Assembly (NCBI GenBank): GCA_041662205.1
Contig: JBAZSZ010000001.1
Location: forward strand, 226,494 to 290,493
Length of the DNA: 64,000 bases
DNA from: Minisyncoccota bacterium
GTDB taxonomy: Bacteria; Patescibacteriota; Minisyncoccia; Phycocordibacterales; UBA9973
Direction: 5' to 3'
Shown here: positions 3 to 14,316 of the stretch, piece by piece
How positions within the stretch are numbered: position 1 is the stretch's first letter
How the letters are laid out: each line of letters begins with the position of its first letter
The notes under the pieces: generated by a model
Seen by the model: the letters and a program-made list of their open reading frames with translations, nothing else
The model's database searches: none
What the model was told of the DNA's origin: nothing
Made by a program: the position numbers and the translations under genes

Positions 3-689
3 ATGGCAAAAACCAAGATAGCTGTTATAGACGATAGAGTAGATGCACGAGCACTTGTTGCTAGTGTCATTGATGATGCTATAACAAACCTTGAAATAAC
101 CGATAAATGGTCTGTTTTGGAAGCGTCTCCTTTGCCAAAACTCAAAGACTATCTTAATTGGGTTAGCGATAAAAAAGTTGGAATTTTAATCATTGATGAA
201 CGTCTTGGTGAGGTTCCTGATGATGCGGGTAAAGCCGCTAGTTACAAGGGCAGTGATCTGGTTAATTTATTGAGAAAACAATATAAGGATATGCCTATCT
301 ATGGCGTTACATCCTACCCTGATGATGGCTCTTTACAAAAACACTTTGCCTTATTTGATGAAGTTGTAAAAAGAGATGACTTTACTTCTAAAGCAGCCCA
401 ATATGTAGACCGATTCTTGAGAACGTATAAAAACTTTCTTGAAGATAATGAAAAAGAGCTAACCGAGCTTTCTGTCATCTCAAAGAAGATAGCTTTAGGT
501 AAGGCAAGTCGATCAGAAAAGAAAAGAGCCGAAGCCATTCAGAAAAACCTTGAAATTCCTGTTACAACTTTAGCGATTGGTAGTCGGAAAGAATGGATTG
601 ATGACTATGAAAAAGTCATTGCTGATCTCAAAAAAACTCAAAGCGATGTAGGAAAGTTTTTAAAAAAGAGCACTAAGAAAAAGAAATGA
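3..689 (+). CDS. CheY-like receiver (REC)-like domain protein with coiled-coil C-terminus; first gene of 3-gene overlapping cassette
   Basis: ATG at 3. N-terminus KIAVIDD..., acidic residue in GILIIDE, YGVTS and VVKRD resemble REC D/T/K positions. C-terminal half is charged/helical. Stop overlaps next start (ATGA at 686-689). Confidence 0.45.
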   Translation: MAKTKIAVIDDRVDARALVASVIDDAITNLEITDKWSVLEASPLPKLKDYLNWVSDKKVGILIIDERLGEVPDDAGKAASYKGSDLVNLLRKQYKDMPIYGVTSYPDDGSLQKHFALFDEVVKRDDFTSKAAQYVDRFLRTYKNFLEDNEKELTELSVISKKIALGKASRSEKKRAEAIQKNLEIPVTTLAIGSRKEWIDDYEKVIADLKKTQSDVGKFLKKSTKKKK

Positions 690-1333
690 AATGGACTTTA
701 ATTCAAAAAACACCCAACCCTACTATCGAAGCCTATGGATACGAGGACAAGCGAGTCAAAGAATTTTTAAGGCAAGAAGGCGGTCTTAGATGTGTATATT
801 GTGCTGTACATGAAAATGCTCTCGGTGGAGTACAAGGATTTCATGTTGAGCATTACAAACCAAAAAGACGATTCCCAGTATTAATTAATAGTCTCAATAA
901 TCTTTTTTACTCTTGTCCAATCTGTAATCGATTTAAATCTAGTGATTGGCCAGCAGAACCAAATAAGAAGTTTGGAAACAGTTCATATCCTAATCCTTCT
1001 CAAGTTGACTACGCTATTCTTTTTGAAGTTGACCAAAAGAGTGGTTCGGTTAACGGAAAATTTGTAGCTTCAAAGTATATAGTTGAACGTCTATATTTTA
1101 ACCGCCCACAGTTAATATTGGAACGTCGACAGTATTTTCTTGACGAGCAACTTAATTCGCTGAATGAAAAAAATAAAGACCTAATCAAGGAACTAAAAAC
1201 TAGGAGCGATAAGAGATCACTTGCATATTTAGCCAAACTTGCGGATTTTAGCATTAAGTTAAACGAGTTGTTTCTTACCCTAAAGAAAATACCATCTTAT
1301 GAGATTAGTGACGTAACTAAACAAAGATCATGA
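686..1333 (+). CDS. HNH family endonuclease
   Basis: HNH core: CVYCAVHE...GFHVEHYKPK...INSLNNLFYSCPICNRFK (His-Asn-Asn plus Cys ligands). Translationally coupled on both sides (ATGA overlaps). Confidence 0.7.
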   Translation: MKWTLIQKTPNPTIEAYGYEDKRVKEFLRQEGGLRCVYCAVHENALGGVQGFHVEHYKPKRRFPVLINSLNNLFYSCPICNRFKSSDWPAEPNKKFGNSSYPNPSQVDYAILFEVDQKSGSVNGKFVASKYIVERLYFNRPQLILERRQYFLDEQLNSLNEKNKDLIKELKTRSDKRSLAYLAKLADFSIKLNELFLTLKKIPSYEISDVTKQRS

Positions 1334-2958
1334 GAACTCGAAAGGAAAATGGTTCATACTACACCCCAGAAATCATCGCTGATTTTATTATTAAGCGAGT
1401 TTTTGATAATAAACACTACTTTCTGCCCAGAGACATAAGCGTATTAGAATCAAGCGTGGGAGACGGGATCTTCGTTCGCTCTCTGTTGAGTAGCCCCAAA
1501 GTTAAAACTAAGAAACTGACCCTAGAGGTGGTAGAGAGAGAAGGCAAAGAACTAAAGAAAGCCTTAGTCATTGCTGATGGACTAAAGTCAAAACAAACCA
1601 AAATTATTTCTCACCATAGAGATTATCTTGAGTTTGAAAAGACTAATAAAAATAAATACGACCTGATTATCGGTAATCCACCTTATATTAAAAAGAATCA
1701 TCTATCAAAAAAGCAGCTCAGTTTATGTGAAAATATTCATAAGAGAGCCAAACTATCTGATAAAAAAATAAAAAATATTTGGACAGCATTCCTTATAGGA
1801 GCAGTAGAATCACTCAATGAGAACGGTGTTATTTCTTTGGTCTTACCAGCCGAATTATTACAGGTCTCATATACGAAAGAGCTTAGAAATTATTTGCGTA
1901 ATACTCTTAATAAAATCGAGATATTTGCATTTAATGAGCTCGTATTCGAAGGCATTGAACAGGATGTAATAATCATTATTGGAACAAAATCATCAAAGAA
2001 TAAGGGCGTTTCTTTTTTTCAAGCAAATAAATTAGTTGATCTAAAGAAGCCTGATCTTATCCCGGGTAATACAAACATTGATCGAGAAACACTTGATAAA
2101 TGGACTAACTACATTTTATCTGAAAAAGAGCTTTCTTTTCTTGATAGCCTAAAGAAGAAGCTCAAAGAAGTGAGAGATTACTCAAAGGTGCAAGTTGGAA
2201 TTGTGACCGCTGTAAATAACTTTTTTATTATTAATGAAGATATTGTAAAAAACTTCAAGCTCAATTCTAACTGTACGCCAATTTTACAAAAAAGTTCTTT
2301 CGTCCCTGTGGCTTTAACGATAAGAAAAAATGATTTTTTCTCACTCAAGAAAAGAGGTAAGCCAGTTTTTCTGCTATCTCTTCCTGATAAACCAGAAGAT
2401 TTTCTATCTAAAAATGTTAAGAAGTATATAAAAAGTGGAGTGGATGAAGGAATTCATAAAGGTTACAAATGCTCGATCAGAAACCACTGGTATCACGTTC
2501 CAAGTGTTTGGCCTCCAGAAGGTGTCTTTATTAAAAGAAGTAATATCTTTCCAAGAATCATGACGAATGAGGCAAAAGTTAATGTCACTGATGCTTTTTA
2601 TCGTATATCAATGAAAGATGGTTATAATATTAAGAGCTTAGCATTTTCCTTCTGTAATTCTCTCAGCCTTATTTTTGCTGAGCTTGAGGGTAGATTTTAT
2701 GGAGGAGGCGTATTAGAGCTTATCCCAAACGAGTTTAAGAGTATACCAATACCTTACTCAGATGTTAAAGAAAAAGATTTTGAGTACCTGGATCGGATGT
2801 TAAGGAAAAAAGAACCAATTGACACTATCTTAGATTACACCGACAGAGTGATTTTAAAAAAAACACTGAAGTTAGCTAATAAAGATATTAAAAATATTAG
2901 GAAAATTTATTCCAAACTAGTTAATCGAAGAATGAAGGTTTCGCTCAATAAAAATTAA
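1330..2958 (+). CDS. gamma-class N6-adenine DNA methyltransferase (TaqI/Eco57I-like) with C-terminal target-recognition region
   Basis: Motif I VLESSVGDGIF then motif IV DLIIGNPPY, in gamma order. Roughly 350 aa C-terminal extension. ATGA overlap with upstream HNH gene. Confidence 0.8.
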   Translation: MRTRKENGSYYTPEIIADFIIKRVFDNKHYFLPRDISVLESSVGDGIFVRSLLSSPKVKTKKLTLEVVEREGKELKKALVIADGLKSKQTKIISHHRDYLEFEKTNKNKYDLIIGNPPYIKKNHLSKKQLSLCENIHKRAKLSDKKIKNIWTAFLIGAVESLNENGVISLVLPAELLQVSYTKELRNYLRNTLNKIEIFAFNELVFEGIEQDVIIIIGTKSSKNKGVSFFQANKLVDLKKPDLIPGNTNIDRETLDKWTNYILSEKELSFLDSLKKKLKEVRDYSKVQVGIVTAVNNFFIINEDIVKNFKLNSNCTPILQKSSFVPVALTIRKNDFFSLKKRGKPVFLLSLPDKPEDFLSKNVKKYIKSGVDEGIHKGYKCSIRNHWYHVPSVWPPEGVFIKRSNIFPRIMTNEAKVNVTDAFYRISMKDGYNIKSLAFSFCNSLSLIFAELEGRFYGGGVLELIPNEFKSIPIPYSDVKEKDFEYLDRMLRKKEPIDTILDYTDRVILKKTLKLANKDIKNIRKIYSKLVNRRMKVSLNKN

Positions 2959-4355
2959 TTCTTTAAGTAAAGTAGTACTTTCTTTTCTTCGAGTGCAAGC
3001 TTGCTTTTCAGACACCCTAGTAAATCTCTTTTCTCAAATATTGATCCTTCTACAAGAAGGTATTTGGTGTAATTTCTTATATCAGCATCCTTCACGTAGT
3101 ATTCCTCTTGAGCCTTGCCCATAATTCCGGAGTGGAATTTCTTATGCCTTTCAATTTCAACTTCCAATTTTTTCTTTAAACCGGATTTATCCAAATCAAT
3201 TTGATCAAGGATTTCTGTAAGTTGGTTTATTAATACTTTTTCTTCAATGTATCCCTCTTTGCAATTAATATCTCGGGCTCTAGTACAACCGTAATAAATA
3301 TATTTATTAACGGAACCGTCTTTGAGAGTTTTATATTTCTCTTGCCCTGTGATGCCAGAACCGCAACGGCCACATATAAACATTCTAGTAAAAGCAAACT
3401 CCTTATTTCTGCTGTGCGATTTTACTTGCAGGTGCAATTGTTTTTGCACGTCATCAAATAAATCTTTAGAAATTAATGGTATATGTTTACCTTGAAACCA
3501 TCTTCCACTCCCTTTGGGATACTCAAATGTTCCATAATAAAAATGGTTATTAAGAATTATGTAAATATTACTAAGAGTTAGAGGTTTGCCGGATTTTGTT
3601 TTAAATTTTAAATCATCCTTTAACCACCTGAATACTTTTCTTCCGCTCCACGCTTCATGTCCCACTTTCTTAAATACTTCTTTCATAACCTGTGCTCGAT
3701 CCGGGTCAACGAATACTTGGCATTTCTGATCTTTATTTTTAGCATTTAGATATCCAGTTGGTGCAACGCTCGGCCATAATCCCATTTCACATTGTGTTTT
3801 GAGTCCACGCTTTACATTTATACTTTTATTATCATTTTCAAGTTTAGCTTGGGATCCAAGAATCATTAAAAGGAATTTCTCATTTGGATTATTAGAAAAG
3901 TGTTGGCTGTATGTTTTTATTTCAACTAATTTCTTTTGGTCCAGTAAATCTACTATCGCACCAAGGTCTCCAGCATTCCTGCTGAGTCTGTCTGGATGCC
4001 ACACAAGAATTCCATTAAATTTTCCTTCTCGGATATCAATAAGCATTTTGTTAAAGACTGGTCGTTGCCCACAATCTTTTGCTGAATGAGATTCTCTATA
4101 AATATCCACGATCTGAAGATTGTCTCGAGTCGCGATCGTCAACATTTCTTTTATCTGGGAATCTATTGATAATGCCTGCTTTTCTTCGGCTTCGCTTGAT
4201 TTACGGGCATACAAACAGTACTTGATTCGTTCTTGTGTTACCGTAGCTGGAAAACCTATTTGGGCTCCATATTGCGTTGTCTTATCCATACGAACAACAA
4301 CATACTCTGAACAAAAATTAAGTCTAGTCATAAAGTGGATAACTTCACTACACAA
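2955..4355 (-). CDS. large serine recombinase (resolvase/integrase family); true start may be the internal Met (MDKTT..., ~4289)
   Basis: N-terminal catalytic motif LYARKSSEAEEKQALSIDSQ; HPDRLSRN; Cys-rich zinc-ribbon/recombinase domain (CGRCGSG...YYGC). Convergent 4-nt overlap with MTase stop. Confidence 0.85.
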   Translation of the reverse strand: MCSEVIHFMTRLNFCSEYVVVRMDKTTQYGAQIGFPATVTQERIKYCLYARKSSEAEEKQALSIDSQIKEMLTIATRDNLQIVDIYRESHSAKDCGQRPVFNKMLIDIREGKFNGILVWHPDRLSRNAGDLGAIVDLLDQKKLVEIKTYSQHFSNNPNEKFLLMILGSQAKLENDNKSINVKRGLKTQCEMGLWPSVAPTGYLNAKNKDQKCQVFVDPDRAQVMKEVFKKVGHEAWSGRKVFRWLKDDLKFKTKSGKPLTLSNIYIILNNHFYYGTFEYPKGSGRWFQGKHIPLISKDLFDDVQKQLHLQVKSHSRNKEFAFTRMFICGRCGSGITGQEKYKTLKDGSVNKYIYYGCTRARDINCKEGYIEEKVLINQLTEILDQIDLDKSGLKKKLEVEIERHKKFHSGIMGKAQEEYYVKDADIRNYTKYLLVEGSIFEKRDLLGCLKSKLALEEKKVLLYLKN

Positions 4356-4465
4356 TAATTTAAAAGGAAGCTAGGCTACACAAGCCTCCCAAAAGGAGGT
4401 ATAATCTCATTACAAGTTAATAAGCGACCTAACCCCTAAATTTATTTAAGGTATGGTCATAAAGT

Positions 4466-4507
4466 CGTATGAAGCATAAAGAACCCGTCATGGGGTCGCT
4501 TCATACG
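4466..4507. repeat. perfect 10-bp inverted repeat (cgtatgaagc / gcttcatacg) enclosing a 22-nt loop
   Basis: Read directly: 4466-4475 and 4498-4507 are reverse complements. Confidence 0.8.
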
Positions 4508-4508
4508 C

Positions 4509-4544
4509 CGTATAGGGAAACCTATATGAGAGGCTTCGGTCTCT
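4509..4544. other. two adjacent tetraloop hairpins (GAAA-capped 8-bp stem; cUUCGg-capped stem)
   Basis: cgtatagg-gaaa-cctatatg (4509-4528) and agaggc-ttcg-gtctct (4529-4544). Both are classic stable RNA tetraloops. Confidence 0.6.
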
Positions 4545-4558
4545 ACCCGTGATGGGCT

Positions 4559-4599
4559 TTTTGCGTCTTATCACCGGTATTTATCAATAAGACGCAAAA
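4559..4599. repeat. perfect 13-bp inverted repeat (ttttgcgtcttat / ataagacgcaaaa), 15-nt loop, just upstream of ORF 4609
   Basis: Read directly from sequence. Confidence 0.8.
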
Positions 4600-4608
4600 G
4601 AAAAAGTT

Positions 4609-4902
4609 ATGTCGAACTTGATCTATGAAGGAATATTTAAAGCAGTTCTGTTTGGTTTAACTCTATCAATTGCCGTTGCTGTTTTTTCAATAGCTAAACA
4701 AGTTGCGAAAAAAGAATTTATTGGAGTACCAACCTGGGAATTTATTTTAAGATTAATTTATTACTTAGGTGGAATAGCTCTCGCTTCTTTTTTACTCGCT
4801 GGTTTGATAGATAATGGCCACAATCAAATTTTAGCTGTAGCAACTTATTTATTTTTAATAATGTCGGGTGCATGGGTGTATGGCCTTCGCGCATCTAACT
4901 AA
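4609..4902 (+). CDS. small hydrophobic membrane protein, hypothetical
   Basis: 97-aa ORF with three predicted TM-like hydrophobic stretches. Confidence 0.4.
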   Translation: MSNLIYEGIFKAVLFGLTLSIAVAVFSIAKQVAKKEFIGVPTWEFILRLIYYLGGIALASFLLAGLIDNGHNQILAVATYLFLIMSGAWVYGLRASN

Positions 4903-4911
4903 TTTAATTTT

Positions 4912-5181
4912 ATGACCAAAAAACAATTTATTGTGTTGATAGTTGCGATCCTACTTATCCCTATAATGTACCTCTACAATGTTCGTTCTGTAAGTGCCGC
5001 TAGAAAAAGGTGCGCTGAATATGCGATGCCTTTAGTCGGAGCATCTTTCCCAGATGCTTTTGCCGAAAGCGGGTATAATTTTCCGCCGAAGAGAATCAAA
5101 GCAGAATACTCACAAGATTTCAAAGCCAATTATGATATATTCTTTAATTTCTGTATGGATCATTTTGAAGTTAAAGGCTAA
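4912..5181 (+). CDS. small protein with N-terminal TM/signal, hypothetical
   Basis: 89-aa ORF with hydrophobic N-terminus, 10 nt after the previous gene. Confidence 0.35.
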   Translation: MTKKQFIVLIVAILLIPIMYLYNVRSVSAARKRCAEYAMPLVGASFPDAFAESGYNFPPKRIKAEYSQDFKANYDIFFNFCMDHFEVKG

Positions 5182-5532
5182 TTATAGATTTTTCAATACG
5201 CCAGATTTAGCCAAAGCTTTGGTTGGTAATTTTTTGCTATATCTGGGACTTTTTTCACCTGGCTCTCTAGCTTTACCCATGGTAAGATCAAAGTACATCC
5301 TAGCTGATCTGACATCACCCTGAATTGCTTGTTTACGCAAAGAATCTAAAACAATTATCCCAATTTTTTTCTTTACTCTTCGTACCTGACCATGTCTTTG
5401 TTCTTTGACAACAATTTCTTTCAAAAAGAATTCATTCATAAATCTACGCTGTTCCTTGTAGGGTCGTCCAGCACCGGCACGAGCTCCACCATTCTTACGA
5501 CGGCCATCTTTGTTTTTCTTTGGAAAGCGCAT
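5182..5532 (-). CDS. phage terminase small subunit-like / basic DNA-binding protein
   Basis: Very basic N-terminus (KKNKDGRRKNGGARAGAGRP). Motif QAIQGDVRSARMYFDL resembles the TerS (Terminase_2-like) 'GNVxAAIFWLK' region. Confidence 0.4.
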   Translation of the reverse strand: MRFPKKNKDGRRKNGGARAGAGRPYKEQRRFMNEFFLKEIVVKEQRHGQVRRVKKKIGIIVLDSLRKQAIQGDVRSARMYFDLTMGKAREPGEKSPRYSKKLPTKALAKSGVLKNL

Positions 5533-5631
5533 TAAATTTGATTAAATATTTAGGTTAAATAATATCCTTATAATATAACACTTTTTATTTTCAAAAACGA
5601 CATATTCAATCTTTTTTAGACCCTTTTTGAC

Positions 5632-5648
5632 CCGACCTAGACAGGTCA
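5632..5648. repeat. 17-bp direct repeat copy 1 (ccgacctagacaggtca)
   Basis: Matches 6006-6022 with one mismatch. Confidence 0.7.
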
Positions 5649-5681
5649 GAGTCCAAGATTCGAAAGTGATATAATATACTA

Positions 5682-6005
5682 ATGCAAATAAAAGATATAT
5701 TTAACGTAGGTCCAGTGGGCTCAATGGGAAGACGATTGCAGTCATATTTAAATGGTGGCAATTGTCAGATTATTAATAAAACCTTAAATGAAGATCGAGT
5801 AGATTTTCGATTAAGAAGAGAATCTGATGGAATGGAGGGAGACTCATTTATCAAAGTTAGGGATGAATTTAAAGAAAGGAATAAGGAATTGCTAAACTGG
5901 ATTTTTGTAAATAAGGAAATAATGGGACTTACAATAGATCAGTTAGCTCAAATGGAAACAAACCTAAAGATGGAGATTTTTAACGGACATGTTCAAATTA
6001 AATAG
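5682..6005 (+). CDS. hypothetical protein flanked by 17-bp direct repeats
   Basis: 107-aa ORF. An extended -10 (tgatataat) lies ~10 nt upstream. Confidence 0.4.
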   Translation: MQIKDIFNVGPVGSMGRRLQSYLNGGNCQIINKTLNEDRVDFRLRRESDGMEGDSFIKVRDEFKERNKELLNWIFVNKEIMGLTIDQLAQMETNLKMEIFNGHVQIK

Positions 6006-6022
6006 CCGACCTAGACGGGTCA
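6006..6022. repeat. 17-bp direct repeat copy 2 (ccgacctagacgggtca)
   Basis: See copy 1 at 5632-5648. Confidence 0.7.
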
Positions 6023-6461
6023 TCTAGTTAATGTATTTAGTGCTAGAATATCCTTACGACATCTAGTGTGGTACGTACCAGACCAGACATCGCAGCAAAA
6101 ACGAGTGCAGCGATGTTTTTGATGGGAGAAATGAGCAAACTTCTTTGCTCATGGCTAGGAAGCGAAAAGCTTTTCATTATTTACTGAAAGTAAATTGAAA
6201 AGGTATACTGGTCATGTAATGACCGATAAGTGTACTCACGGTCCTAGTCTCCCAGCTTTGCGTGGAAGTTATCGTTTTTAGAAAAATTTTGAGCGACGCA
6301 AAGCGTCGCGTATGGAGTTTCCGCCAGAATTCGCCAAGGGTTTTTGAAATCCAAAAGAAGCGAGCGGGACGCGAGGCGGGGGTTCGAGCCAATCTTTTTA
6401 AGAAAATCTCTTTTAGCTTCACTCGAGATACATTGAGTTATTAGTTAATAAAAAAATATTT

Positions 6462-6869
6462 ATGAATCAAAGTATCTTAATAGCAATAATATCGACAGGC
6501 AGCACACTATTAGGTATTAGTGTTGGGTCTGTGTTAAATCATATTCTTGAAAGAAAAACTGTAAGAGGAAGGTTGTTTTTTGAAGCAAGAAAAATTTCTT
6601 ACGGAAAATTTATAGGTCTTACAAGAAACATAATACTAGAACCAGCAACAGAAAAAGATACATTAGAATTCAATAATATAGCTAGTGAGGCATTATTAAT
6701 TTCTAATTCTATTTTAAGAGAGGAGCTGGTTGATTTATGTAATTCAATAAGTCTTCTAAAGCGAACATCTTTGGGAGCTGGTTCTTCTTTTGATATAAAA
6801 GATCAAAATATTTTAATAGAAAAATTAAAGAAAATTGAACTTTCAATGACAAAAGAATTAAAAATATAA
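6462..6869 (+). CDS. hypothetical protein with N-terminal TM helix
   Basis: 135-aa ORF with hydrophobic N-terminus. Confidence 0.4.
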   Translation: MNQSILIAIISTGSTLLGISVGSVLNHILERKTVRGRLFFEARKISYGKFIGLTRNIILEPATEKDTLEFNNIASEALLISNSILREELVDLCNSISLLKRTSLGAGSSFDIKDQNILIEKLKKIELSMTKELKI

Positions 6870-12152: not shown

Positions 12153-13301
12153 TTATCTCCACCCTTTTACCACTTGCCACTTTATATTAAGTGCAGCACC
12201 GAGAGTTATGGCTGAGGAAACGCATATTATAATCCAACCTAGGAAAGGTATTAATCCAAGAAGAGAACAAATTATTACACCCAATAAGATAGTTTTCCAA
12301 TTAACAACATAGACAGATTTTTTAAATATCCATTTGTAAATGAGAGCACCTAGGAATATCGGAGTTATTATGCCCGTATAGATAAAAAGCATAATGAAAG
12401 AAAGTAATCCGAGGATACCGAAGGGGATTCCAATGATGCTAATAAGGAGAATAATTGAAAGCACAGGAAGAACGATAATAGTAATAATGCCCCGTCCTAG
12501 TTCTTTGAGAGGGTTTGCGGTAGCTTTTTCTACGAGTTCTTGGCTGTAACGTCGGAAAATAAGTCCGACAATGAGGGCTGTGGCTAATAACATAAGGAAT
12601 TTAGCTATAAGTACAAAGGTAAAGAATCCAAGCATCCATGTAGCTATATTTTTATTCGCTCTATCACTTACCTTTAATTGAGTGAAAATAGTTTCCCCAC
12701 GTACTTTGCCTCTTTCTTCAATAGTGATAGGATTTGCTGCCTCATAATTAAGATTGCCTTTTATGTTAGCATTTGGCCCTAAGGTTAATTTTTTTGTTTT
12801 AATATTCACATTGCCTTCTATAGGAGCATTGATGTAAATTTCTCCACCAGCCATTTTTACACTTCCTTTAACTTCAGAATCCATCCTAATTGTTCCGCCT
12901 GCTACTGTTAGATCTCCACCTATTGATTTACCAGATAATATTATCTGTCCTCCACCTACAACTACGTCACCTAAAACATTTCCACTTATAATGATATTTC
13001 CACCACCTATGCGAACGTCTCCAGAAACTTGATTAGAAACTGTGATATTGCCACCTACGACAAATAGATCTTCTGTAACCAATCCAGATACGAGTACTGT
13101 GCCACCAGCAATTAAAAGATCCTTGTTTGCATTTCCAGCACTAACAGCAGTTCCACCCGCCATATAAAGATTACCCTCTGTTTTTTCTAAAGAGGTGAGA
13201 GATATTTGTTGCCCAGCTCTGAACTCGGCAGCAAACCCTAAAACAGGAAACACTAATAAAATTAATATTAATACTACAAGAACCCTGTTAAAGTTTTTCA
13301 T
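12153..13301 (-). CDS. membrane protein with N-terminal signal, bactofilin-like beta-helical GG-repeat domain and C-terminal multi-TM domain
   Basis: Seven or more tandem ~19-aa repeats of the form G(D/N)hxhxGGxIxhSG, followed by 4-5 TM helices. Confidence 0.5.
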   Translation of the reverse strand: MKNFNRVLVVLILILLVFPVLGFAAEFRAGQQISLTSLEKTEGNLYMAGGTAVSAGNANKDLLIAGGTVLVSGLVTEDLFVVGGNITVSNQVSGDVRIGGGNIIISGNVLGDVVVGGGQIILSGKSIGGDLTVAGGTIRMDSEVKGSVKMAGGEIYINAPIEGNVNIKTKKLTLGPNANIKGNLNYEAANPITIEERGKVRGETIFTQLKVSDRANKNIATWMLGFFTFVLIAKFLMLLATALIVGLIFRRYSQELVEKATANPLKELGRGIITIIVLPVLSIILLISIIGIPFGILGLLSFIMLFIYTGIITPIFLGALIYKWIFKKSVYVVNWKTILLGVIICSLLGLIPFLGWIIICVSSAITLGAALNIKWQVVKGWR

Positions 13302-13387
13302 ATGTATATATTATACAACGCATATTTCTCACTGCAACATTACAATCTCGCATTGATATATTTATATTTTTATATTAGAATTTATCA

Positions 13388-13978
13388 ATGGAACCTAAAA
13401 ACGCATTGCCTCACAAAGGAAAAAGATTAATCATAACTGGAATTCCTACTATTGGTAAAACTAGTTTAGCCAAACGTCTCGCAGAAGCAACTGGAGGAAT
13501 TTTTGTTTCCGCTGATGATGTTCGCCACGAGCTTCGGCCAGACCCAAAATATACAGATGCTACAAATTTTTGGAAAAATAAAAACAAGAGAACCTATTAT
13601 ATAAAAACATCCTATGCTCAACAATGGAAAAATATTGTCTCTCAATCTGAAAAATTATGGGAAGGAATGCTGAATAAAATAAATAGTTATGCAAATGAAG
13701 AAAAACCTGTTATTTTTGAAGGGGTTAGTTTTTTGCCACATTTAGTACATAAGGATTTGAATATTCCTTGTATGGTGATAGCCGGTGCTACCCTTGAAGA
13801 GGTGGTAGAAAAAAATAAAGACAAACCTGTTTGGGAAAATACAGAGTTAGAATTACAATCTGCCGCTTTTTTCCTAGGTGATCAGCCATATTTTAAAGCA
13901 GAAGCTGAAAAATATAATTACCCAGTGTTTACAAACAATGACATAGCTTTTAAAGAAGCTCTTAAGATTCTAGAATAG
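13388..13978 (+). CDS. P-loop NTPase (kinase-like)
   Basis: Walker A GIPTIGKTSLAKRL. Confidence 0.55.
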   Translation: MEPKNALPHKGKRLIITGIPTIGKTSLAKRLAEATGGIFVSADDVRHELRPDPKYTDATNFWKNKNKRTYYIKTSYAQQWKNIVSQSEKLWEGMLNKINSYANEEKPVIFEGVSFLPHLVHKDLNIPCMVIAGATLEEVVEKNKDKPVWENTELELQSAAFFLGDQPYFKAEAEKYNYPVFTNNDIAFKEALKILE

Positions 13979-13980
13979 TT

Positions 13981-14316
13981 ATGGCAACGATAGAAGATTT
14001 TGAAAAATTAGATATACGGGTTGGTAAAATTATTGAGGTTGAGGACCATCCAGAAGCCAGAAAGCCCGGATATAAATTAAAAATAGATTTTGGTCCTGAA
14101 GTTGGAATCAAAAATTCATTTTCTCAAATAGCGATATTTTATGAAAAAGAAGCTTTGATGGGGAAGCTGGTCTTAGGTGTGGTAAATTTTCCAATTAGGA
14201 AAATCGGATCTTTCGAATCTGAAGCCCTGACCCTCGGCGTGCCTGACGCAGAAGGCAAAGTTGTTCTATTGGTACCAGACAAAGACAACGCAGTGATAGG
14301 AGGGAAGTTGTATTAA
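13981..14316 (+). CDS. tRNA-binding domain protein (CsaA/EMAP-like)
   Basis: DIRVGKIIEVEDHPEA..KL.KLKIDFG is typical of the CsaA/MetG C-terminal tRNA-binding OB fold. Confidence 0.7.
   Translation: MATIEDFEKLDIRVGKIIEVEDHPEARKPGYKLKIDFGPEVGIKNSFSQIAIFYEKEALMGKLVLGVVNFPIRKIGSFESEALTLGVPDAEGKVVLLVPDKDNAVIGGKLY

What the first reader, a model, noticed from the sequence alone, without database searches (positions are those of the whole stretch)
3..4355. Translationally coupled REC-like / HNH nuclease / gamma N6A-methyltransferase cassette fused end-to-end with a large serine recombinase: candidate mobile R-M-like defence module with an unusual receiver-domain component
Seen in sequence:
- Three + strand genes are linked by ATGA start/stop overlaps at 686-689 and 1330-1333.
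- Gene 2 has a complete HNH core.
- Gene 3 has motif I (ESSVGDGIF) followed by motif IV (NPPY) in gamma order, plus a long C-terminal region that could be a target-recognition domain.
- Gene 1 has a CheY-like receiver-type N-terminus (KIAVIDD; acidic pocket GILIIDE; T/S and K positions) followed by a coiled coil.
- A serine recombinase (catalytic YARKSS, SRN) converges with a 4-nt overlap on the MTase stop.

Established knowledge: HNH restriction endonucleases and gamma-class MTases form Type II R-M pairs, and large serine recombinases mobilise genomic islands.

Inference: this is R-M/defence cargo on a serine-recombinase element that probably continues upstream of the window. A receiver-domain protein is not a known R-M controller (C-proteins are HTH). 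That suggests either phosphorylation-gated control of restriction or a new three-component defence type with split nuclease and MTase/TRD subunits.
Basis: partly seen in the sequence, partly recalled or inferred. Interest (0 to 1): 0.8.

Follow-up and report, generated by a model that had tools for sequence, protein, structure and literature searches.

The report
Truncated Ambrosia-like two-component nuclease/methylase defence cassette
The three coupled genes are the last three of a four-gene anti-phage cassette (a sensor kinase, cut off by the window edge, plus a receiver protein, an HNH nuclease and a DNA adenine methylase) related to the recently described 'Ambrosia' system, here in a candidate-phyla-radiation bacterium next to a serine recombinase.

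Summary
There are three translationally coupled + strand genes (3-689, 686-1333, 1330-2958) and a convergent large serine recombinase (LSR) that overlaps the methylase stop by 4 nt.

The unit is cut by the window edge. An identical contig shows a 759-aa gene 5 nt upstream that fuses a MORC/Hsp90-like GHKL ATPase to a class-I histidine kinase.

- Gene 1 is a genuine receiver domain followed by long helices. No DNA-binding domain was found.
- Gene 2 is a PtuB-type HNH nuclease.
- Gene 3 is an Eco57I-like gamma N6-adenine DNA methylase.

Kinase, receiver and HNH are homologues of AbrB, AbrC and AbrD of the experimentally validated Ambrosia defence system (bioRxiv 2025). The validated residues AbrC D60 and AbrD H60 align with D65 and H56 here.

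The order kinase-receiver-HNH recurs in many phyla. The methylase changes subfamily and position between loci, and no XRE regulator is present here. The LSR is linked to the cassette only in the Paceibacteria loci, so it is a mobility neighbour and not a system component.

Verdict: a new variant of a known kind. Moderate interest.

The parts
3..689 (+). Gene 1: AbrC-like response regulator. Receiver domain (about residues 4-129; D10/D11, D65, T103, R124) followed by three long helices (131-164, 170-182, 189-227) and a Lys-rich tail. No DNA-binding domain was detected.
686..1333 (+). Gene 2: AbrD-like, PtuB-type HNH (His-Me) nuclease with two CxxC zinc knuckles and a helical C-terminal tail.
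   Evidence: PADLOC PtuB E 6.9e-20. NCBIfam PtuB/TIGR02646 hits are sub-threshold. BLASTP to AbrD gives 33% identity and E 9e-24, with H56 aligned to the validated H60. Invariant C36, C39, H56, N72, C77, C80, N81. The nearest solved sequences are retron I-A/Septu PtuB.
1330..2958 (+). Gene 3: gamma-class N6-adenine DNA methyltransferase, Eco57I-like, with a C-terminal M_Eco57I_C (target-recognition) domain.
   Evidence: Pfam M_Eco57I_C E 1.4e-40, Eco57I E 5.3e-18, N6_Mtase E 1.7e-11. PADLOC MTase_II PDLC03267 E 6e-153 over the full length. The nearest solved sequences are the DNA adenine methylases CamA, M.BseCI and M.TaqI. Only weakly related to AbrA: 24% identity, E 3e-4.
2955..4355 (-). Large serine recombinase, convergent with the cassette; its stop overlaps the methylase stop by 4 nt. 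The likely true start is the ATG at 4286. It is a mobility neighbour, not a component of the defence system.
   Evidence: Pfam Resolvase, Recombinase and Zn_ribbon_recom. NCBIfam nearest family is CcrB, E 1e-37. Orthologous LSRs lie next to the cassette in L004/L013, L006 and L008 in different positions and orientations, and are absent from L002 and from all non-CPR loci.

Best explanation
Window 3-2958 holds the last three genes of a four-gene, Ambrosia-like anti-phage operon in a Paceibacteria (CPR) genome. The first gene lies just outside the window. It encodes a soluble protein that fuses a MORC/SMCHD1/Hsp90-like GHKL ATPase module (GHKL domain plus middle domain) through a long coiled coil to a class-I histidine-kinase core (DHp His539, CA domain).

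Proposed mechanism:
1. The MORC-like module senses an infection-linked cue, most plausibly DNA.
2. This switches the kinase core, which autophosphorylates on H539.
3. The phosphoryl group passes to D65 of the gene-1 receiver protein.
4. The receiver protein has only a helical output. It licenses the gene-2 PtuB-type HNH nuclease, probably by direct protein contact, to nick or cut DNA.
5. The gene-3 m6A DNA methylase is an obligatory but exchangeable fourth module. Its role is unresolved: it may mark self DNA or mark substrate DNA.

Shown here: the domain identities, homology to AbrB/AbrC/AbrD, conservation of the catalytic and phospho-acceptor residues, and the conserved gene order.

Inferred: what is sensed, that the nuclease is gated at the protein level rather than by transcription, and what the methylase does.

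The LSR and a tRNA gene flank the cassette, which suggests it sits in an integrative island.
For: Fourth gene:
- It lies 5 nt upstream on an identical contig.
- Pfam finds HATPase_c_3 (residues 56-174) and HATPase_c (644-758), and many NCBIfam sensor-kinase models match.
- In the AF2 model the C-terminal half matches HK853/ZraS and the N-terminal ~450 aa match MORC3, SMCHD1 and Hsp90.
- H539-E540 and both sets of ATP-binding motifs are invariant in 64 homologues.

Homology to Ambrosia (sequences taken from Table S1 of the preprint):
- AbrB: 34% identity, E 2e-66.
- AbrC: 27% identity, E 1e-11, D65=D60.
- AbrD: 33% identity, E 9e-24, H56=H60.
- In Ambrosia, point mutations in the predicted functional domains of every protein abolish defence. 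These include AbrB N40A (the N-terminal GHKL Asn), AbrC D60A and AbrD H60A (mutant list).

Conservation of the cassette:
- The four-gene cassette is present in 4 further CPR contexts (L002, L004, L006, L008) and in Chitinophaga, Marinicella and an Acidobacteria MAG.
- Among 80 GTDB species loci with a kinase relative, 42 have receiver plus HNH in the fixed order kinase-receiver-HNH, and 40 of those 42 have a methylase.

For protein-level gating:
- No strands and no HTH in the receiver protein's C-terminal part.
- ATGA coupling between receiver and HNH here, and in 15 of 42 loci by naive ORF calls.
Against: - No experiment exists for this CPR version, and sequence identity to the validated system is only 27-34%.
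- The Ambrosia authors favour transcriptional control. They report a wHTH in AbrC and infection-induced reporter expression. My no-HTH result comes from a model of the CPR protein and a Pfam scan, not from a structure of AbrC.
- The methylase belongs to a different subfamily from AbrA, and the XRE regulator AbrR is absent here.
- The receiver's conserved beta5 Lys is Arg124 in most members aligned.
- Nothing shows what the MORC-like module senses.
- A profile-profile comparison found no relationship between the helical tails of the receiver and the HNH. I could not run multimer modelling, so no contact between them has been tested.
Confidence: 0.75

Rival explanations
1. It is a classical Type II R-M pair. 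The HNH restricts unmethylated DNA and the methylase protects self DNA. The kinase and receiver act only as an accessory controller, which is essentially the first reader's reading.
For: - Nuclease and DNA methylase sit in one operon.
- The kinase's N-terminal GHKL region matches the BbrUII/HgiDII restriction-enzyme family (NCBIfam E 2e-27) and PADLOC REase_II models.
- R-M genes are enriched around related kinase/receiver pairs (PMC8011034).
Against: - The HNH is a 215-aa PtuB-type nuclease with no recognition domain.
- Closely related kinase/receiver/HNH triads carry unrelated methylase subfamilies. The methylase is upstream, downstream or on the opposite strand. That is hard to reconcile with matched sequence specificity.
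- In Ambrosia, phages grown on the methylase alone stay sensitive, and a methylase point mutant loses defence.
Confidence: 0.12
2. The receiver protein is a transcription factor, as in the Ambrosia authors' model. When phosphorylated it switches on the operon, and the nuclease and methylase are controlled only through their expression.
For: - Reporter genes replacing abrA or abrD are induced on infection, and the authors report a wHTH in AbrC.
- Autoregulated two-component operons are common (established knowledge).
Against: - The AF2 model of gene 1, built on an alignment that includes AbrC relatives, shows only long helices after the receiver domain and no wing strands.
- Pfam finds no HTH in the C-terminal parts of gene 1 or AbrC, even at E<=10.
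- The XRE regulator that could explain induction in Ambrosia is absent here.
- Receiver and HNH are translationally coupled.
Confidence: 0.25
3. It is not defence. The cassette is an addiction or stabilisation module, or an epigenetic regulator, that serves the LSR-borne island.
For: - An LSR lies next to the cassette in 4 of 5 CPR contexts.
- Relatives lie on a relaxase-bearing element (L010), between two IS256-like transposase genes (L011) and on 66 plasmid records.
- R-M modules are known to behave selfishly (established knowledge).
Against: - The homologous system protects against phages experimentally.
- The cassette occurs without any LSR in L002 and in all non-CPR loci.
- No kinase homologue was found in 50,697 phage records.
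Confidence: 0.08

Closest known systems
Ambrosia defence system (AbrR/AbrA/AbrB/AbrC/AbrD), bioRxiv 10.1101/2025.09.30.679545
   Same: - The kinase, receiver and HNH proteins are homologous.
- The order kinase-receiver-HNH is the same.
- An N6-adenine methylase is an obligatory partner.
- The validated residues AbrC D60 and AbrD H60 align with D65 and H56, and the N-terminal GHKL N-box targeted by AbrB N40A (ELVKNAYDADA) is conserved as ELVKNSYDADA.
   Different: - Identity is only 27-34%.
- The methylase is Eco57I-like (542 aa, with M_Eco57I_C) and downstream, instead of AbrA-like and upstream.
- There is no XRE AbrR gene.
- The host is a CPR bacterium, whereas Ambrosia was reported only in Gammaproteobacteria.
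- The proteins may fall below the authors' HMM cut-offs; I could not test this because their HMMs are not available here.
HEF_HK (PF19191) / Response_reg_2 (PF19192) two-component-like pairs linked to R-M systems (Bellieny-Rabelo et al. 2021, PMC8011034)
   Same: - The kinase architecture is the same: HATPase_c_3 + DHp + HATPase_c.
- The kinase is followed by a divergent receiver-like protein.
- R-M genes, including HNH nucleases, are nearby.
- A paraMORC origin was proposed.
   Different: - Neither PF19191 nor PF19192 matches the proteins here or any listed homologue.
- That family is mostly linked to C5 methylases, Vsr and HNH_2.
- It was characterised by computation only.
Septu PtuAB and retron I-A (Ec78) PtuB HNH effectors
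   Same: Gene 2 is most similar to PtuB in PADLOC, in NCBIfam and among solved structures. It is the same small CxxC/HNH nuclease with a helical tail.
   Different: No PtuA ABC-type ATPase and no retron is present. The partner here is a kinase/receiver pair. The PtuB equivalog cut-off is not reached (30.6 bits against 150).
Prokaryotic MORC/paraMORC GHKL ATPases in R-M contexts (Iyer, Abhiman, Aravind 2008, as cited in PMC8011034) and the GHKL-containing BbrUII/HgiDII restriction enzymes
   Same: The N-terminal HATPase_c_3 module plus middle domain folds like MORC3 and SMCHD1. It matches the BbrUII/HgiDII family N-terminus.
   Different: Here the module is fused to a histidine-kinase core rather than to a nuclease or helicase partner.
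Detocs (defensive two-component system). Recalled from my own knowledge; not found in the paper library
   Same: A histidine kinase and receiver domains are used for anti-phage signalling.
   Different: As I recall, Detocs has a second buffer receiver and an effector fused to a receiver (usually a nucleoside phosphorylase). It has no methylase and no MORC-like sensor. I did not test this here.

Membership tests
Ambrosia defence system | AbrB-like protein: N-terminal HATPase_c_3 GHKL plus C-terminal histidine-kinase ATPase, encoded next to the receiver gene | tested here: met
   The gene lies 5 nt upstream of gene 1, outside the window, on the identical contig L001. BLASTP to AbrB residues 1-399 gives 34% identity and E 2e-66. 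The N-box ELVKNSYDADA is conserved.
Ambrosia defence system | AbrC-like receiver protein with the phospho-acceptor Asp (D60) | tested here: met
   27% identity over 143 aa, E 1e-11, with D65 aligned to D60. D65 is invariant in 59 family members.
Ambrosia defence system | AbrD-like PtuB-type HNH nuclease with the catalytic His (H60) | tested here: met
   33% identity over 203 aa, E 9e-24, with H56 aligned to H60. H56 is invariant.
Ambrosia defence system | AbrA N6-adenine DNA methylase in the cluster | tested here: inconclusive
   An N6A DNA methylase is present, but it is of the Eco57I-like subfamily and lies downstream. Similarity to AbrA is 24% over 242 aa, E 3e-4. AbrA-like and Eco57I-like methylases alternate among relatives.
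Ambrosia defence system | AbrR HipB-like XRE regulator | tested here: not met
   The 186 nt upstream of the kinase ORF hold a tRNA 3' end, a terminator-like hairpin and a promoter-like site, but no ORF. No HTH gene is conserved upstream in the CPR loci. An HTH_3 gene is present in the Chitinophaga locus L010.
Ambrosia defence system | Scores above the authors' HMM cut-offs (AbrA 100, AbrB 500, AbrC 150, AbrD 200 bits) and demonstrated anti-phage activity | not testable with these tools
   The authors' HMMs are not available here (cut-offs quoted). No experiment is possible.
HEF_HK / Response_reg_2 two-component-like system (PMC8011034) | Matches to Pfam PF19191 (kinase) and PF19192 (receiver-like protein) | tested here: not met
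   No such hit at E<=1 for gene 1 or the kinase. None appears in the precomputed Pfam lists of 77 receiver homologues and 120 kinase homologues.
HEF_HK / Response_reg_2 two-component-like system (PMC8011034) | Architecture HATPase_c_3 + DHp (His-Glu) + HATPase_c, an adjacent receiver-like gene, and R-M genes nearby | tested here: met
   (H539-E540 invariant).
Response-regulator receiver domain (CheY-like) | (beta-alpha)5 fold with acidic pocket, phospho-Asp, beta4 Thr/Ser and beta5 Lys | tested here: met
Type II restriction-modification system | Endonuclease and methylase share one recognition sequence, and methylation protects DNA | not testable with these tools
   Indirect evidence is against it. 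No recognition domain is detected in the HNH. The methylase subfamily is exchanged among close relatives of the triad. In Ambrosia, methylation does not protect phage.
Septu / retron I-A PtuAB | PtuB HNH paired with a PtuA ATPase (or with a retron RT and msr/msd) | tested here: not met
   A PtuB-like HNH is present. None of the called neighbours carries an ABC/AAA ATPase or reverse-transcriptase Pfam family.

I did not run a PtuA model on the neighbouring genes. The kinase hit only REase_II models in PADLOC.
Large serine recombinase | Resolvase catalytic domain + Recombinase domain + zinc ribbon | tested here: met
   All three Pfam domains score above their gathering thresholds. The att sites were not found.

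The most novel reading that the evidence does not exclude
The MORC-like GHKL-histidine kinase plus receiver pair may be a general, ancient infection-sensing module with swappable outputs: HNH plus methylase here, an MBL-fold protein or receiver-fused domains of unknown type in cyanobacteria, Actinobacteria and archaea. In the Ambrosia-like branch, the receiver's helical output would gate a PtuB-type nuclease directly by phosphorylation, that is post-translationally and without a DNA-binding regulator. The MORC-like clamp would read the state of DNA that the exchangeable methylase writes.
Probability: 0.3. Interest if true: 0.65.

Novelty: new variant of a known kind. Interest (0 to 1): 0.4.

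Why it matters
- It extends a just-described defence system from Gammaproteobacteria to CPR bacteria and many other phyla.
- It shows that the kinase-receiver-HNH triad is the conserved core, while the methylase and the XRE regulator are exchangeable.
- It raises a testable doubt about the published transcription-factor model for the receiver protein.
- If the receiver gates the nuclease directly, this would be a clear case of two-component phosphotransfer acting as a post-translational switch in immunity, coupled to a MORC-type sensor whose eukaryotic relatives act on chromatin.

Tried and rejected
- Looked for PF19191/PF19192 membership. None was found.
- Tested whether the helical tails of the receiver and the HNH are related, prompted by a weak PADLOC HNH_I-A hit on the gene 1 C-terminus. 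hhalign shows no relationship.
- Looked for a DNA-binding domain in the C-terminal part of gene 1 and of AbrC. There are no Pfam hits, and the model has only helices there.
- Tried to define the island ends.
  - The tRNA 3' end is not repeated anywhere in the window.
  - The two flanks share no direct or inverted repeat of 11 nt or more.
  - The att sites remain unknown.
- Tried to fetch the 377-kb parent contig upstream of the window. Only the 6.4-kb Logan contig was returned.
- A genome scan using the receiver alignment failed, because it has no conserved stretch long enough. I used the kinase alignment instead.
- Promoter and terminator scans do not exceed shuffled controls.
- A literature search for Detocs found nothing in the library.
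- No kinase homologue was found in phage genomes.
Full report
**1. What is in the sequence**

The ORF list gives three + strand genes: 3-689 (228 aa), 686-1333 (215 aa) and 1330-2958 (542 aa). A - strand gene spans 2955-4355. Reading the bases confirms ATGA at 686-689 and at 1330-1333. It also confirms a TTAA at 2955-2958 that is shared by the two convergent stop codons.

Pfam, PADLOC and NCBIfam results:
- Gene 1 has only a sub-threshold Response_reg match (17.2 bits, gathering threshold 30.2).
- Gene 2 matches HNH at threshold. In PADLOC it is clearly PtuB-like (E 6.9e-20).
- Gene 3 is an Eco57I-like gamma N6-adenine methylase with the M_Eco57I_C domain (E 1.4e-40). It matches PADLOC MTase_II at E 6e-153.
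- Gene 4 is a large serine recombinase (LSR) with Resolvase, Recombinase and Zn_ribbon_recom.

The LSR most likely starts at the ATG at 4286, because its homologues are 433-441 aa.

**2. The window cuts the unit**

A look-up of gene 2 found an identical 6.4-kb contig, L001. On it a 759-aa gene ends 5 nt before gene 1.

Features of that upstream protein:
- It has an N-terminal HATPase_c_3 domain and a C-terminal HATPase_c domain.
- It matches many sensor histidine kinases. Its N-terminus matches the BbrUII/HgiDII restriction-enzyme family.
- In an alignment of 64 homologues, the H-box His539-Glu540 and both sets of ATP-binding motifs are invariant.
- Its AlphaFold model (pLDDT 80.4) has these parts:
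  - a GHKL domain;
  - an alpha/beta middle domain;
  - a long coiled coil that carries H539;
  - a second DHp helix;
  - a CA domain.
- Foldseek matches the C-terminal half to HK853 and ZraS. It matches the N-terminal ~450 residues to MORC3, SMCHD1 and Hsp90.

**3. Gene 1 is a real receiver**

D10, D65, E66 and P98 are invariant, and T103 is nearly so. The beta5 Lys is Arg124 in most members aligned.

No beta strands follow the receiver domain. Pfam finds no HTH in the C-terminal part, even at E<=10.

The family is uniform in length, about 215-225 aa. An exhaustive profile search finds 241 clusters at E<=1e-30 and 795 at E<=1e-3.

**4. Gene 2 and gene 3**

Nine HNH homologues share C36, C39, H56, N72, C77, C80 and N81. 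The closest solved sequences are PtuB of retron I-A and Septu.

The closest solved relatives of the methylase are the DNA adenine methylases CamA, M.BseCI and M.TaqI. An RNA or protein methylase is therefore unlikely.

**5. Conservation of the cassette**

The four genes occur together in four more Paceibacteria contexts: L002, L004, L006 and L008. They also occur together in three other phyla:
- Chitinophaga caseinilytica (L010). An HTH_3 gene lies just upstream, and relaxase genes are nearby.
- Marinicella (L011). The cassette lies between two IS256-like transposase genes.
- An Acidobacteria MAG (L012). The order there is methylase-kinase-receiver-HNH.

A scan of one genome per GTDB species found at least 587 relatives of the kinase. 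I scored the 80 loci kept with HMMs built from my own alignments. Results:
- 42 loci have receiver plus HNH, always in the order kinase-receiver-HNH.
- 40 of those 42 have a methylase.
- The layouts among those 40 are:

| Methylase type and position | Loci |
|---|---|
| Eco57I-like, downstream | 26 |
| AbrA-like, upstream | 8 |
| Eco57I-like, upstream | 4 |
| AbrA-like, downstream on the opposite strand | 2 |

- Both methylase types occur next to kinases that score equally high.
- An LSR was seen only in the Paceibacteria loci.

**6. Prior art**

Bellieny-Rabelo et al. (PMC8011034) described HATPase_c_3+HEF_HK+HATPase_c kinases paired with Response_reg_2 proteins next to R-M genes. Neither of those Pfam families matches the proteins here.

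A 2025 preprint (10.1101/2025.09.30.679545) validated 'Ambrosia' as an anti-phage system. Its components are an XRE regulator (AbrR), an N6A methylase (AbrA), a HATPase/kinase (AbrB), a REC protein (AbrC) and an HNH (AbrD). Its main findings:
- Every protein is needed for defence.
- AbrC D60A abolishes defence.
- Methylation by AbrA does not protect phages.
- Expression is induced on infection.

I took the protein sequences from its Table S1 and compared them with the proteins here:

| Protein here | Ambrosia protein | Identity | E-value | Aligned validated residue |
|---|---|---|---|---|
| Kinase | AbrB | 34% | 2e-66 | - |
| Gene 1 | AbrC | 27% | 1e-11 | D65 = D60 |
| Gene 2 | AbrD | 33% | 9e-24 | H56 = H60 |
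| Gene 3 | AbrA | 24% | 3e-4 | - |

The AbrB mutant N40A hits the N-box Asn of the MORC-like domain. That motif is conserved here.

**7. Interpretation**

This is an Ambrosia-like system. Its conserved core is the kinase-receiver-HNH triad. The methylase is exchangeable, and no XRE regulator is present in this locus.

- The exchange of methylase subfamily among close relatives argues against a matched-specificity Type II pair.
- The receiver protein has no detectable DNA-binding domain and is translationally coupled to the HNH. For these reasons I favour direct, phosphorylation-dependent licensing of the nuclease over purely transcriptional control. This is an inference. It conflicts with the preprint's wHTH annotation, which I could not test on AbrC itself.
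- What the MORC-like module senses is unknown.

**8. Wider family**

More distant GHKL-kinases (27-29% identity) occur in cyanobacteria, Actinobacteria and archaea. They are also followed by receiver proteins, but with other outputs: an MBL-fold gene, or a receiver fused to an unknown domain of about 250 aa. This suggests a modular sensor pair with interchangeable effectors. Relatives of the kinase occur on 66 plasmid records, 53 of them conjugative, and on no phage record.

**9. The recombinase and the flanks**

Nucleotide similarity to L004 runs collinearly, at about 71% identity, from the kinase start to the LSR N-terminus.

The first 27 nt of L001 look like a tRNA 3' end. ARAGORN cannot call it because it is cut by the contig end. 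A LOOT RNA lies 70 nt beyond the LSR ORF.

I found no att-like repeats. The cassette therefore probably lies in an integrative island, but the island limits are not defined.

**10. Verdict**

The finding is real and well observed. It is incomplete (four genes, not three) and already has close precedents. I rate it a new variant of a known kind, of moderate interest.

Noticed in passing
window 4426-4544 (+); also L004 13483-13607 and L006 4754-4875: A LOOT RNA (Rfam RF03000, an sRNA of unknown function; 85.8 bits against a gathering threshold of 46.4) lies 70 nt beyond the 5' end of the LSR ORF, on the opposite strand. LOOT also occurs near the LSR in two other CPR loci, always on the LSR's 5' side and 0.07-2.3 kb away. 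It is absent from L008, L002 and the non-CPR loci that were scanned (L010-L012). A TATAAT/TATCAT box about 20 nt upstream is conserved. LOOT may belong to the LSR element or may mark its integration region.
   Followed up: partly
L001 1-27 (about 2.45 kb upstream of window base 1): The start of the contig reads like a tRNA 3' end: a T-arm CTAGG-TTCGATT-CCTAG plus an acceptor strand. It is followed by a terminator-like hairpin (129-142) and a promoter-like site (168-196) before the kinase gene. The cassette would therefore lie between a tRNA gene and the LSR. In L008, two tRNA-Ser genes follow the methylase directly.
   Followed up: partly
window 4333-4374 and 6041-6099; L001 80-153: Short non-coding stretches are conserved between loci although the surrounding genes differ:
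- window 4333-4374 matches L004 13383-13424 (83% identity);
- window 6041-6099 matches L004 14766-14824 (86%);
- L001 80-153 matches L006 12188-12263 (80%).

No Rfam family matches window 4200-6600 apart from LOOT.
   Followed up: no
L060, L054, L062, L067, L085, L078, L052: Distant MORC-like GHKL-histidine kinases in cyanobacteria, Gammaproteobacteria, Firmicutes, Actinobacteria, Ignavibacteria and a Methanoperedenaceae archaeon are each followed by a receiver protein with a different output. The output is either a separate metallo-beta-lactamase-fold gene or a ~250-aa C-terminal domain with no Pfam match.
   Followed up: partly
L010 1-6900 and L011 3110-4327 / 13020-14237: In Chitinophaga the cassette sits next to Toprim, MobC and relaxase genes and an Xre_MbcA_ParS_C gene, which looks like a mobilisable element. 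In Marinicella it lies between two 405-aa IS256-like (Transposase_mut) genes in opposite orientation, which may be a composite transposon.
   Followed up: no
window 3-689, residue 124 of gene 1: The near-universal beta5 Lys of receiver domains is Arg in 7 of the 8 family members aligned, including gene 1. The validated AbrC keeps Lys.
   Followed up: no
window 5182-5532 (-): A 116-aa basic protein gives a sub-threshold DUF5681 match (23.4 bits against a gathering threshold of 27.5). The 4.6-9 kb stretch after LOOT otherwise holds small ORFs with no Pfam match.
   Followed up: no
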